Shown piece by piece: positions 59,270-60,611 of a stretch of DNA of 62,231 nt. Within the stretch, counting starts at the first letter, position 1, and each line of letters opens with the position of its first letter. A model generated the notes under the pieces. The model did no database searches. It was given only the letters and a program-made list of their open reading frames with translations, and had not been told where the DNA came from. The stretch comes from a virus. The stretch lies in the IMG/VR virus record IMGVR_UViG_3300010348_000458, positions 1-62,231 of that record, one strand, 5' to 3'. Made by a program: the position numbers and the translations under genes.

Positions 59270-60567
59270 GAAATGCCGCCAGAAAACCACCTGCTTCAGC
59301 GGGTGGATGAATGGCGGGCTTATGCAAAAAGACCTTGTATCTTACAAAAAAACATGATATAATTGTAAGTATGGAAGTGATGAAGACGTACAAATTCCGC
59401 ATCTATCCCAATGCCGTACAGCGAGAATGGTTTGCGCGGCAGTTTGGGGCTTGTCGGTTCGTGTATAATCATTTCCTGCAGGCGCGAATTGACTATTACG
59501 CCGCGCACAAGGACGATCCAACCAAAAAGGGCTTGACCTATCACGACACTGCCCTTGCCCTTACCCAACTCAAGAAAGCCGAAGGGTACGAATGGTTGAA
59601 GGAAACCAATTCGCAGGCGTTGCAACACGCTTTGCGCGACCTAGATACGGCATACAATAATTTCTTCAACAAGCGGGCGCAATTCCCGCGTTTCAAATCC
59701 AAGCGCGGTGAGCAAGCCTTCCATATTCCGCAATTCTTCAAGGTGGACGGCAATCATCTGACGTTGCCGAAAATCGGGACAGTGAAGATGGTCGTGCATC
59801 GCCCGATTGAAGGTGTAGTTCGTAATGTGACCATTCGGAAAACGCCAGCGGGACGCTACTTTGCCATGCTCGCCTGTCGGGTGGAACTACCCGAACCACC
59901 ATCCAAACAGGGGGAAGTTGGCATTGATGTCGGGTTGAAGTCTTTTCTGGTCACATCTAAAGGCGAGGTGGTCGAACACCCCCGTCATCTTTTGAAAGCT
60001 GAGAAACGGCTAAAACGGTTACAGCGGTCACTTTCTCGCCACAAGAAAGGCTCAAACAATCGAGAAAAGGTGCGGTTGCGCGTTGCCCGCCAGCACGAAA
60101 AGGTAGCGAACGCTCGCCAGGATTTCCTGCACAAACTCAGTCGGCGGCTGGTTGACGAAAACCAAGTCATCTGCGCCGAAGACCTGAATGTGAAAGGGAT
60201 GCTGGCGAACCACCACCTTGCTAAACGGATTGCCGATAGCGGGTGGGGAGAACTGTTCCGCCAACTGACTTACAAGGGCGCGTGGTATGGAACAGACTTC
60301 CACCAAATCCATCGTTTTTTCCCGTCCTCGAAACGCTGTCATGTCTGCGGTTGCATCTATCAGAATTTGCGGTTGTCCGAACGCGAATGGACTTGTCCTG
60401 AATGCGGCACAAACCATGACCGCGATAAAAACGCCGCGATAAATATTGAGATTTTCGGCTGTGCCGAACGTACTGGTGGAACGCCAGGAACGCATACGCC
60501 TGGGGAGAGTGGGATTACTCGCTCATCGAACCAGGAAGCCACCCGCTTCAGCGGGTGGTAGTTCACC
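59270..60567 (+). mobile_element. tnpB-only IS200/IS605-family element (left end approximate; right end defined by comparison with the orphan copy)
   Basis: Left-end hairpin CCACCTGC ttca GCGGGTGG at 59287-59306. Right-end hairpin CCACCCGC ttca GCGGGTGG at 60540-60559. No tnpA. Confidence 0.65.
59371..60561 (+). CDS. tnpB: TnpB (RuvC-like RNA-guided nuclease family)
   Basis: YKFRIYPN..Q N-terminus. RuvC D (GIDVGLK), E (ICAEDLNV), zinc ribbon CHVCG..CPECG, D (HDRDKNAAINI). Start at ATG 59371 or 59380. Confidence 0.9.
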   Translation: MEVMKTYKFRIYPNAVQREWFARQFGACRFVYNHFLQARIDYYAAHKDDPTKKGLTYHDTALALTQLKKAEGYEWLKETNSQALQHALRDLDTAYNNFFNKRAQFPRFKSKRGEQAFHIPQFFKVDGNHLTLPKIGTVKMVVHRPIEGVVRNVTIRKTPAGRYFAMLACRVELPEPPSKQGEVGIDVGLKSFLVTSKGEVVEHPRHLLKAEKRLKRLQRSLSRHKKGSNNREKVRLRVARQHEKVANARQDFLHKLSRRLVDENQVICAEDLNVKGMLANHHLAKRIADSGWGELFRQLTYKGAWYGTDFHQIHRFFPSSKRCHVCGCIYQNLRLSEREWTCPECGTNHDRDKNAAINIEIFGCAERTGGTPGTHTPGESGITRSSNQEATRFSGW

Positions 60568-60587
60568 GCGATATCGTTTTCGCGATT
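60439..60587 (+). ncRNA. Predicted omega-RNA region of tnpB-2 (scaffold 60439-60567 plus about 20 nt of flanking guide)
   Basis: Inferred from what is known of TnpB omega-RNAs and from the exact extent of the duplicated block at 25639-25767. Confidence 0.45.
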
Positions 60588-60611
60588 ATCGCGAAAACGG
60601 AAAATTGGTAC

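What the first reader, a model, noticed from the sequence alone, without database searches (positions are those of the whole stretch)
60567..60599. Guide-position sequence of tnpB-2 recurs inside the replication-initiator gene
Comparison with the orphan copy places the right end of the element at 60567. The next 20 nt, GCGATATCGTTTTCGCGATT, are where a TnpB guide is expected. That sequence matches 27354-27373 in 19 of 20 positions. The whole 33-bp block 60567-60599 matches 27353-27385 with 1 mismatch, including a perfect-armed 25-bp palindrome. The second copy lies within gene 26807-27769.

Interpretations:
- The IS inserted next to one copy of a duplicated protein-binding palindrome. At 60575-60599 the palindrome sits 12 nt upstream of the -35 of a consensus promoter.
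- TnpB-2 is programmed against a site in the phage's own replication gene or origin, which would allow self-targeting, copy control or homing between the two sites.
Basis: partly seen in the sequence, partly recalled or inferred. Interest (0 to 1): 0.65.

Follow-up and report, generated by a model that had tools for sequence, protein, structure and literature searches.

The report
Transposon guide matches phage origin repeat
A small TnpB transposon sits inside the second copy of this phage's replication-origin repeats, so its guide position also matches the first copy inside the initiator gene; that copy lacks the TTAT motif the nuclease should need, so self-cutting is unlikely, while sibling phages without the transposon do carry cuttable sites.

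Summary
60567-60599 matches 27353-27385 in 32 of 33 positions, with none expected by chance. The only mismatch is the centre base of a 25-bp palindrome.

The match is one block of a roughly 200-bp colinear module present twice. One copy lies in the linker-coding middle of an O-like replication initiator gene. The other lies in the divergent intergenic region beside a perfect sigma-70 promoter. The module has a hairpin, 12-bp repeats and TCGCG-N5-CGCGA dyads 23 bp apart. Distant initiator genes carry the same layout, so I read it as an origin-type iteron array.

The IS (59268-60566, ISDra2-like, tnpB only) sits inside the intergenic copy. Its right end is 60566, so the guide starts at 60567 and matches 27353-27372 in 20 of 20 positions. 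Twelve IS-free relatives carry 94 extra bases at this spot.

Six independent insertion sites of this IS all follow TTAT. The rep-gene copy follows GGGAAT, so self-cleavage of duplex DNA is not supported. IS-free siblings have 1-3 perfect protospacers behind GATTAT, which fits ordinary TnpB homing.

Verdict: an ordinary IS and guide in an unusual place. It is a new member of known kinds, of moderate interest.

The parts
59268..60566 (+). tnpB-only IS200/IS605-type element (1299 bp). It starts AGGAAATGCC and ends TAGTTCAC, with no target duplication.
   Evidence: IS-free relatives align up to 59267 and resume at 60567. L004 shows a precise insertion of a 97.9% identical copy into the empty site GCTTAT|TTGTCC.
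59263..59267 (+). TTTAT flank 5' of the left end (TAM / TnpA target; core TTAT at 59264-59267)
   Evidence: Left flanks of independent copies are TTTAT, CTTAT, ATTAT, TTTAT, ATTAT, TTTAT.
59287..59306 (+). Left-end subterminal hairpin CCACCTGCTTCAGCGGGTGG
   Evidence: It resembles the right-end hairpin (I12).
59311..60561 (+). tnpB-2 ORF (longest frame). The likely start is 59371 (MEVMKT), giving 396 aa.
   Evidence: Pfam OrfB_IS605, Cas12f1-like_TNB and HTH_OrfB_IS605. ISDra2 TnpB structures match at E 1e-90 with the D/E/D motifs present. dN/dS is 0.16-0.19 between copies.
60539..60566 (+). Right-end hairpin CCACCCGCTTCAGCGGGTGG plus the terminal TAGTTCAC
   Evidence: The RNA fold of 60400-60605 has z = -5.1.
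60567..60586 (+). Guide position of the TnpB-2 omega-RNA (16-20 nt): CGCGATATCGTTTTCGCGAT
   Evidence: Assigned by position immediately 3' of the right end and by the ISDra2 precedent (PMC8612924). The RNA 3' end was not mapped.
60575..60599 (.). 25-bp palindrome. Its core dyad TCGCGATTATCGCGA (60580-60594) is the last iteron left in the intergenic module.
60612..60639 (+). Consensus sigma-70 promoter TTGACA-16-TATAAT for the plus-strand operon
   Evidence: 12 of 12.
59204..59267 (.). Left part of the intergenic module: block 59204-59219 and imperfect hairpin 59232-59267
   Evidence: It is colinear with 27227-27243 and 27247-27282 (32/36). DNA fold z = -3.9.
60711..60735 (.). Weak distal block, 21/25 to 27401-27425
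   Evidence: The match is weak and could be chance.
26807..27769 (-). O-like / DnaD-like replication initiator gene
   Evidence: PHROG 9773, 6.7e-24. tblastn hits to phage replication initiation proteins. It is flanked by primase-like and DnaB-like genes.
27227..27425 (.). Intragenic origin-like module, encoding linker residues ~115-181. It holds a hairpin (27247-27282), 12-mers TGTTGTAATMTC (27308-27331) and dyads TCGCG-N5-CGCGA at 27343-27357 and 27366-27380.
   Evidence: The same layout occurs in distant homologues.
27353..27372 (+). Perfect 20-nt match to the TnpB-2 guide position, preceded by GGGAAT (27347-27352) rather than TTAT
25640..25767 (-). Orphan right-end copy (omega-RNA scaffold remnant) in the replication operon, with flank CTCAAACCAATTCAAAAGAA

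Best explanation
The 33-bp block is one iteron unit of a replication-origin-type module that this phage lineage carries twice.

Copy 1 lies in the linker-coding middle of the O-like initiator gene, as in lambda O and in the TP901-1 and Tuc2009 replisome organizers. Copy 2 lies in the divergent intergenic region between the small-terminase-like gene and a consensus promoter. Each copy has a hairpin, 12-bp repeats, and TCGCG-N5-CGCGA dyads in 23-bp phase. I infer that these dyads bind the initiator.

An ISDra2-like, tnpB-only IS that inserts 3' of TTAT sits inside copy 2. In this genome, 94 bp of copy 2 are missing; they held the 12-mers and two iteron units. The DNA just 3' of the right end is therefore an iteron. 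That DNA is where the omega-RNA guide is read from, so the guide matches copy 1 as a by-product.

Copy 1 is preceded by GGGAAT, not TTAT, so TnpB-2 should not cut duplex DNA there. IS-free sibling phages carry 1-3 perfect protospacers behind GATTAT in copy 2. The guide is therefore set up for canonical TnpB homing or retention against IS-free genomes.

Shown here: the repeats, the IS boundaries, the TTAT rule, the deletion, and the allele's persistence. Inferred: initiator binding, origin function, omega-RNA ends, and the TAM stringency of the nuclease.
For: - **Colinear blocks flank the IS.** They match the rep-gene module, at 83.9% identity over 149 nt in IS-free relatives.
- **IS-free relatives carry 94 extra bases at this spot.** There are twelve of them: L001, L002, L005, L015-L021, plus L003 and L004, whose IS copy lies elsewhere. 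The intergenic module is non-coding in them.
- **Dyads are confined to the modules.** Exact TCGCG-N5-CGCGA occurs only at 27343, 27366 and 60580 in the window.
- **Iteron copy number varies** from 1 to 3 units between relatives.
- **The two copies exchange sequence.** L017 shows a gene-conversion tract from one copy into the other.
- **The gene is an initiator.** PHROG O-like, 6.7e-24.
- **Distant homologues share the layout.** At 40-45% aa identity, and next to G39P-like loader and DnaB genes, they have 22-23-bp-phased repeats followed by nearly the same 12-mers in mid-gene.
- **The 12-mer pair is widespread.** It occurs in 111 IMG/VR stretches. In all 109 newly fetched loci it lies in an ORF of median 299 aa, at about residue 159. 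It also occurs in 121 GenBank phage records; in the listed rows that carry a specific annotation it lies mostly under replication-initiator genes.
- **TTAT rule.** Six independent junctions follow it.
- **Protospacer flanks.** The rep-copy flank is GGGAAT in the window and in L006, while the sibling intergenic sites are GATTAT.
- **TnpB-2 looks functional.** It is close to ISDra2 TnpB, has an intact RuvC triad, and shows dN/dS of 0.16-0.19.
- **The allele is real and persistent.** Logan contigs show the right junction in runs from three studies, and both junctions in two of them.
- **Literature.** The guide is the ~16 nt 3' of the right end and the TAM is required on dsDNA (PMC8612924). The seed is 12 bp (PMC10097598). 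A TnpB with a TTAT TAM is characterised (PMC13507860). Origins lie inside initiator genes in TP901-1 and Tuc2009 (PMC8965321). SPP1 has oriL in gene 38 plus an intergenic oriR (PMC6316719).
Against: - There are no binding, replication or cleavage data, and the host is unknown.
- The TAM is inferred from insertion sites (TnpA specificity), not measured for TnpB-2.
- The residues that read TAM positions -3 to -5 in ISDra2 are changed or deleted in TnpB-2, so its stringency at those positions is unknown.
- ISDra2 TnpB cuts matching ssDNA without a TAM in vitro (PMC8612924), so an unwound origin is not formally safe.
- The omega-RNA 3' end could not be mapped.
- In read-through RNA, guide nt 9-19 pair with 60589-60599, which might impair the guide.
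- Copy 2 could be a regulatory site rather than an origin. It abuts a promoter, and its loss of the 12-mers is tolerated.
Confidence: 0.7

Rival explanations
1. TnpB-2 targets the phage's own initiator gene or origin at 27353. It would cut or bind there for copy control, self-restriction, or homing of the IS into the rep gene.
For: The guide position matches 27353-27372 in 20/20 positions, including the 12-nt seed. TnpB-2 looks functional. ISDra2 TnpB cuts ssDNA without a TAM (PMC8612924), and origins are unwound.
Against: The 5' flank is GGGAAT, whereas TTAT precedes all six independent insertions. ISDra2 needs its TAM on dsDNA (PMC8612924). The IS-bearing allele recurs in runs from three studies, so no lethal self-cutting occurs. 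The GGGAAT flank is also present in a relative with no IS at this site, so it is not an escape mutation. No IS copy is seen in any rep-gene module.
Confidence: 0.07
2. The dyads are operators of a transcription factor, not origin iterons. Copy 2 would regulate the promoter at 60612, and copy 1 would be a second operator or a relic.
For: The surviving dyad is centred about 60 bp upstream of the predicted start of a perfect promoter. Copy 2 tolerates loss of its 12-mers and two dyads.
Against: The same layout (phased repeats followed by conserved 12-mers) sits in mid-gene in distant initiator homologues that have no such promoter nearby. Origins are known to lie inside such genes (PMC8965321). 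The two roles are not exclusive.
Confidence: 0.15
3. Copy 2 is a functionless fragment left by a partial duplication of the rep gene, and the match to the guide is an accident of where the IS landed.
For: Copy 2 is non-coding, and part of it can be lost. In other phages checked, the 12-mer motif occurs only inside the initiator gene.
Against: All 12 IS-free relatives retain every element of copy 2. Its iteron array is expanded to 3-4 dyads and varies in copy number, and it exchanges sequence with copy 1.
Confidence: 0.08

Closest known systems
ISDra2 (IS200/IS605 family) TnpB with omega/reRNA; ISDge10 TnpB for the TAM
   Same: The protein is a close homologue of ISDra2 TnpB (E 1e-90 to PDB 8H1J and 8BF8) with the RuvC D/E/D residues. 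The element has subterminal hairpins at both ends, inserts 3' of a short motif without target duplication, and takes its guide from the DNA flanking the right end. The TTAT motif equals the characterised ISDge10 TAM (PMC13507860).
   Different: The element has no tnpA. It is carried by a phage and is inserted in an origin-like iteron array, so the guide is a repeated sequence. The TAM differs from ISDra2's TTGAT, and the residues that read -3 to -5 are changed. No RNA or cleavage data exist.
Origins embedded in initiator genes: lambda ori in gene O; TP901-1 ORF13 and Tuc2009 Rep2009 replisome organizers (PMC8965321)
   Same: The N-terminal domain matches O-like and replisome-organizer families. 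The repeats lie in the linker-coding middle of the gene. Lineage-specific phased repeats are followed by an A+T-rich repeat.
   Different: The binding sites here are dyads (TCGCG-N5-CGCGA) in 23-bp phase. A full second copy lies outside the gene. Function was not tested.
Bacillus phage SPP1 oriL (inside gene 38) and oriR (intergenic), both bound by gp38 (PMC6316719)
   Same: There are two similarly organised origin modules, one inside the initiator gene and one intergenic, tens of kb apart. Distant homologues of the window's initiator sit next to G39P-like loader and DnaB genes.
   Different: There is no detectable sequence similarity to G38P (BLASTP E = 2). The resemblance is architectural only.
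Homing endonucleases of T-even phages (marker exclusion in co-infection)
   Same: A phage-borne nuclease gene whose predicted targets are present in sibling genomes that lack the element and absent from its own genome.
   Different: Recognition here is RNA-guided rather than by protein. The comparison is inference only.

Membership tests
IS200/IS605-family TnpB element (tnpB-only, IS1341-like) | TnpB protein with a RuvC-like D/E/D triad and a zinc-finger/TNB domain | tested here: met
   Pfam OrfB_IS605, Cas12f1-like_TNB and HTH_OrfB_IS605. Alignment to ISDra2 TnpB keeps GIDVG, AEDLN and HDRDKNAA.
IS200/IS605-family TnpB element (tnpB-only, IS1341-like) | Subterminal hairpins at both ends, and insertion 3' of a fixed short motif without target duplication | tested here: met
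   Empty versus filled site in L004/L005. Six junctions follow TTAT.
IS200/IS605-family TnpB element (tnpB-only, IS1341-like) | Y1 transposase tnpA inside the element | tested here: not met
   Only 103 nt lie between the left end and the likely tnpB start, which leaves no room for tnpA. The element must be mobilised in trans.
IS200/IS605-family TnpB element (tnpB-only, IS1341-like) | Omega-RNA spanning the tnpB 3' end and right end, ending in ~16 nt of flank | tested here: inconclusive
   Structured RNA is predicted (z = -5.1). There is no Rfam match. Contigs from RNA runs come from other IS copies and give no ends.
Functional TnpB protospacer at 27353 (self-target) | Complementarity over the 12-nt seed and the 16-nt guide | tested here: met
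   20/20.
Functional TnpB protospacer at 27353 (self-target) | Cognate TAM immediately 5' of the protospacer | tested here: not met
   GGGAAT against the TTAT rule. TnpB-2's own TAM was not measured.
Origin embedded in an O-like / replisome-organizer initiator gene | The gene encodes an initiator homologue next to helicase and primase genes | tested here: met
   PHROG 9773, 6.7e-24; tblastn hits; neighbouring genes.
Origin embedded in an O-like / replisome-organizer initiator gene | Phased repeats plus an A+T-rich element in the linker-coding middle, conserved in homologues | tested here: met
   Dyads 23 bp apart and 12-mers at 75% A+T. The same order occurs in L026, L027, BtCS33 and the other newly fetched viral loci examined.
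Origin embedded in an O-like / replisome-organizer initiator gene | The initiator binds the repeats, and replication starts there | not testable with these tools
   This needs EMSA or footprinting and a replication assay. The host is unknown.
SPP1-type two-origin arrangement | A second, similarly organised module outside the initiator gene | tested here: met
SPP1-type two-origin arrangement | Initiator homologous to G38P | tested here: not met
   BLASTP E = 2. SPP1 is absent from the listed tblastn hits.

The most novel reading that the evidence does not exclude
The IS has captured an origin iteron as its guide, so TnpB-2 would act as a phage-against-phage gene drive. In co-infection it would cut every IS-free sibling genome at 1-3 TTAT-flanked perfect protospacers in the second origin module. 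That would either exclude those genomes or copy the IS and its deletion into them. The phage's own initiator-gene copy would be spared because it lacks the TAM. On this reading, the 94-bp deletion is the scar that removed the TAM-flanked iterons lying in cis.
Probability: 0.25. Interest if true: 0.6.

Novelty: new member of a known kind. Interest (0 to 1): 0.38.

Why it matters
The finding turns an apparent case of TnpB self-targeting into a testable natural experiment. One guide has three classes of matching site: its own locus, a TAM-less copy in an essential gene, and TAM-flanked copies in sibling genomes. That set-up suits a measurement of how strictly a TTAT-type TnpB reads its TAM, and a test of whether TnpB homing operates between co-infecting phages. 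It also shows that this phage lineage has an SPP1-like pair of origin-type modules that exchange sequence. The second module can lose its conserved core without ending the lineage.

Tried and rejected
- **Chance match: rejected.** No match appeared in 100 shuffles, and the block is part of a colinear module.
- **Right end at 60567: corrected to 60566**.
- **GenBank phages hold no DNA relative** of either region.
- **Allele scans in IMG/VR found nothing.** I looked for an IS-less allele already carrying the deletion (TTGTCGGTTTAT|CGCGATATCG) and for the same right junction. The order of insertion and deletion therefore stays open. Three scenarios fit, because the deleted segment is bounded by TTAT on both sides:
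  - insertion at GATTAT| followed by a TTAT-microhomology deletion of the upstream, self-targetable iterons;
  - two insertions followed by recombination between the two IS copies;
  - insertion at TTTAT| followed by a deletion of the right flank.
- **Omega-RNA 3' end not mapped.** Only Logan contigs of other IS copies were available.
- **Rfam gave no match**.
- **GC skew is uninformative.** It simply follows gene orientation.
- **The palindrome is not an intrinsic terminator.** It has no T-run.
- **Co-variation test failed.** Scanning IMG/VR for the divergent iteron type of L022, to test co-variation of the two modules, found nothing.
- **SPP1 G38P homology: rejected**.
- **The two-copy layout is not general.** BtCS33 has the motif only in its initiator gene.
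- **Host not identified.** The one genome-collection hit is a 1.7-kb contig of a metagenome bin.

Full report
**1. The observation**

The window is a circularly closed phage assembly: 1-127 equals 62105-62231. The 33-mer at 60567-60599 recurs at 27353-27385 with one mismatch. It also recurs on the minus strand at 27361-27393 with two mismatches. None of 100 shuffles gave a match.

The block contains the 25-bp palindrome CGTTTTCGCGAT-N-ATCGCGAAAACG. The single mismatch is its centre base. The promoter claim holds: TTGACA-16-TATAAT at 60612-60639 scores 12/12 and starts 12 nt after the palindrome. The orphan right-end copy is real: 25639-25767 vs 60439-60567, 99%.

**2. The transposon and its exact ends**

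ORF 59311-60561 carries OrfB_IS605, the Cas12f1-like TNB domain and the OrfB HTH domain. It aligns to ISDra2 TnpB structures at E about 1e-90, with the three RuvC motifs kept.

IMG/VR and metagenome relatives of the phage (93-99% identical) fix the boundaries:
- IS-free contigs align to the window up to 59267 and resume at 60567.
- Contig L004 carries a 97.9% identical copy, inverted, at another spot of the same intergenic region. Its empty site is GGTGGTTGCTTAT|TTGTCCACTTTGGC.

The element is therefore 59268-60566. It starts AGGAAATGCC, ends TAGTTCAC and makes no target duplication. The C at 60567 shared with the orphan copy is coincidence, because other copies are followed by T, G, A or C. 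The guide position starts at 60567 and matches 27353-27372 in 20/20 positions.

Copies differ mostly at synonymous sites (dN/dS 0.16-0.19), so TnpB is under purifying selection. The element has no tnpA.

**3. The TAM**

Left flanks of independent insertions are:
- TTTAT (window)
- CTTAT (L004, L003, L012)
- ATTAT (L008)
- TTTAT (L009)
- ATTAT (L011)
- TTTAT (L014)

The rule is N-TTAT. A 4-bp TTAT TAM is known for ISDge10 TnpB (PMC13507860).

Measured against ISDra2, the residues that read -1T and -2A (Y52, Q80) are conserved in TnpB-2. Those that read -3 to -5 (K76, F77, T123, N124) are changed or deleted (PMC10097598). This fits a TTAT rather than a TTGAT TAM.

**4. Why the guide recurs in the rep gene**

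The 33-bp block is not isolated. The flanks of the IS are colinear with 27227-27425:

| Intergenic copy | Rep-gene copy | Match |
|---|---|---|
| 59204-59219 | 27227-27243 | 15/17 |
| 59232-59267 | 27247-27282 | 32/36; an imperfect hairpin |
| 60567-60599 | 27353-27385 | 32/33 |
| 60711-60735 | 27401-27425 | 21/25; weak |

Twelve IS-free relatives carry 94 more bases between GGTTTAT and CGCGATAT. These bases hold a T-rich stretch, the 12-mers TGTTGTAATMTC and two more 23-bp units CGCGATATCGTTTTCGCGATTAT. They make the intergenic copy 83.9% identical to the rep-gene copy over 149 nt. The intergenic copy is non-coding.

Other features of the two copies:
- The unit number varies between relatives (L015 has one more).
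- L017 carries a rep-type conversion tract inside its intergenic copy.
- The short contig L020 joins the two contexts. It may be a recombinant or an assembly chimera.
- Exact TCGCG-N5-CGCGA dyads occur only three times in the window: 27343 and 27366 (23 bp apart) and 60580.

**5. What the module is**

Gene 26807-27769 matches PHROG 'replication initiation O-like' (6.7e-24) and 'DnaD-like helicase loader'. It lies between primase-like and DnaB-like genes. Its N-domain matches initiators of Staphylococcus, Vibrio, Providencia and E. coli phages. The module encodes the low-complexity linker at residues ~115-181.

Evidence from relatives and homologues:
- In an 82%-identical relative, the N-domain and the iteron spacers diverge. 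The dyad arms and the 23-bp phase persist, and the DNA downstream is about 100% identical.
- Distant homologues (40-45% identity) sit next to G39P-like loader and DnaB genes. In mid-gene they carry 22-23-bp-phased lineage-specific repeats, followed by almost the same 12-mers, ACAGAGATTACT.
- That 12-mer pair occurs in 111 IMG/VR stretches. In all 109 newly fetched loci it lies in an ORF of median 299 aa, at about residue 159.
- It also occurs in 121 GenBank phage records. In the listed rows that carry a specific annotation it lies mostly under replication-initiator genes.

Origins inside such genes are documented for TP901-1 and Tuc2009 (PMC8965321). I therefore read the module as an origin-type iteron array. 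A second, intergenic copy recalls SPP1 oriL/oriR (PMC6316719), but G38P is not a detectable homologue. Another phage with the motif, BtCS33, has only the intragenic copy.

**6. Consequences for TnpB-2**

Within the window, the guide has one off-locus match, at 27353, preceded by GGGAAT. The minus-strand near-match has two seed mismatches. The relative L006 has the same GGGAAT flank although its genome has no IS at this site.

ISDra2 TnpB needs its TAM on duplex DNA, uses about 16 nt of flank as guide and has a 12-bp seed (PMC8612924, PMC10097598). Self-cleavage of duplex DNA at the rep gene is therefore not supported. In contrast, every IS-free relative has 1-3 perfect protospacers behind GATTAT in its intergenic module. 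This is the canonical arrangement for TnpB homing or retention.

The IS-plus-deletion allele is real and persistent. Logan contigs of run X1 reproduce both junctions. Run X47 also shows both junctions, and run X45 shows the right one. The three runs come from three studies, 2016-2022.

Caveats:
- TAM-independent ssDNA cutting is known for ISDra2 (PMC8612924).
- TnpB-2's own TAM is unmeasured.
- In read-through RNA, guide nt 9-19 pair with 60589-60599.
- The omega-RNA end could not be mapped.

**7. The deletion**

The missing 94 bp are bounded by TTAT on both sides. This fits three scenarios:
- insertion at GATTAT| followed by a TTAT-microhomology deletion that removed the upstream, self-targetable iterons;
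- recombination between two IS copies inserted at the two TTAT sites;
- insertion at TTTAT| followed by a deletion of the right flank.

No IS-less deletion allele was found, so the order of events is open. The deletion removes the conserved 12-mers, so the intergenic copy of this phage is probably no longer a working origin. The lineage persists all the same.

**8. Verdict**

The self-targeting interpretation fails its own TAM test. What is there is an ordinary TnpB element and guide in an unusual place: the second copy of an origin-like module. The unexcluded novel reading is a guide aimed at the origins of sibling phages.

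Noticed in passing
window 27308-27331; loci L026:4665-4703, L027:10397-10420, L030-L138: The 12-bp repeat ACAGAGATTACW (x2-3) is conserved at the DNA level in the middle of replication-initiator genes. The phages infect Staphylococcus, Bacillus, Acinetobacter, Klebsiella, E. coli (Stx phages), Vibrio, Pseudomonas and others. 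It occurs in 111 IMG/VR stretches and 121 GenBank records, always after lineage-specific phased repeats. In the window's family it is also kept in a non-coding copy, which argues for a DNA-level role.
   Followed up: partly
window 60684-60863: Two true RNA runs (X36, X37; X37 is size-fractionated) have contigs only over about 60684-60863, downstream of the 60612 promoter and upstream of gene 60957. This may be a stable leader or small RNA. There is no Rfam match. A Ro60/TROVE-vWA gene (84-1472) lies downstream in the same operon.
   Followed up: partly
window 25640-25767 (-): An orphan 128-nt right end (omega-RNA scaffold) lies between the helicase gene and the next gene, in the orientation of the replication operon. 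It could supply TnpB-2 in trans with a second guide, CTCAAACCAATTCAAAAGAA. The region 25211-25859 is absent from the closest relative.
   Followed up: partly
loci L008:1132-1176, L009:3417-3455, L011:2492-2530, L003:10340-10574, L013:1490-1672: Miniature derivatives of the same IS occur in other viral contigs. Some are ~45-nt elements in which the left-end leader and one hairpin are fused to the right-end tail. Others are ~180-235-nt internally deleted copies. Each follows TTAT. They show that the IS family is active across sludge phages.
   Followed up: partly
locus L017 (intergenic module) and L020 (1235 nt): L017 has a rep-gene-type tract of about 40 nt inside its intergenic module, which indicates gene conversion between the two copies. 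L020 joins the rep-gene left context to the intergenic right context. It may be a recombinant molecule or an assembly chimera.
   Followed up: partly
window 20914-22190 (-): A second, G+C-richer tnpB element (tnpB-1, ORF 20927-22045) has a related right-end hairpin ending TAGTTGAC and a left flank TTCAT. Its flank-derived guide has no other match in the window.
   Followed up: partly
window 9700-16500: The region holds dense tandem-repeat arrays: 15-bp x9 at 10087-10266, 13-bp x~20 at 11128-11400, 11-bp arrays at 16288-16504, and 30-bp units at 9904-10018. It also has a dispersed 40-nt motif, ATAGTGACATTTGTCA...GTGACA, at six sites. Their function is unknown.
   Followed up: no
window 60880-60956 and 61736-61812: A 77-nt upstream region, 97% identical between its two copies, precedes two consecutive plus-strand genes: the PAPS-reductase-like gene 60957-61742 and the gene starting at 61810.
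   Followed up: no
window 2508-3221, 5231-5430, 8022-8282, 8651-8911, 9377-9494: Gene-end segments of about 100-200 nt are repeated directly and invertedly at 72-86% identity. This suggests a small family of paralogous genes on both strands.
   Followed up: no
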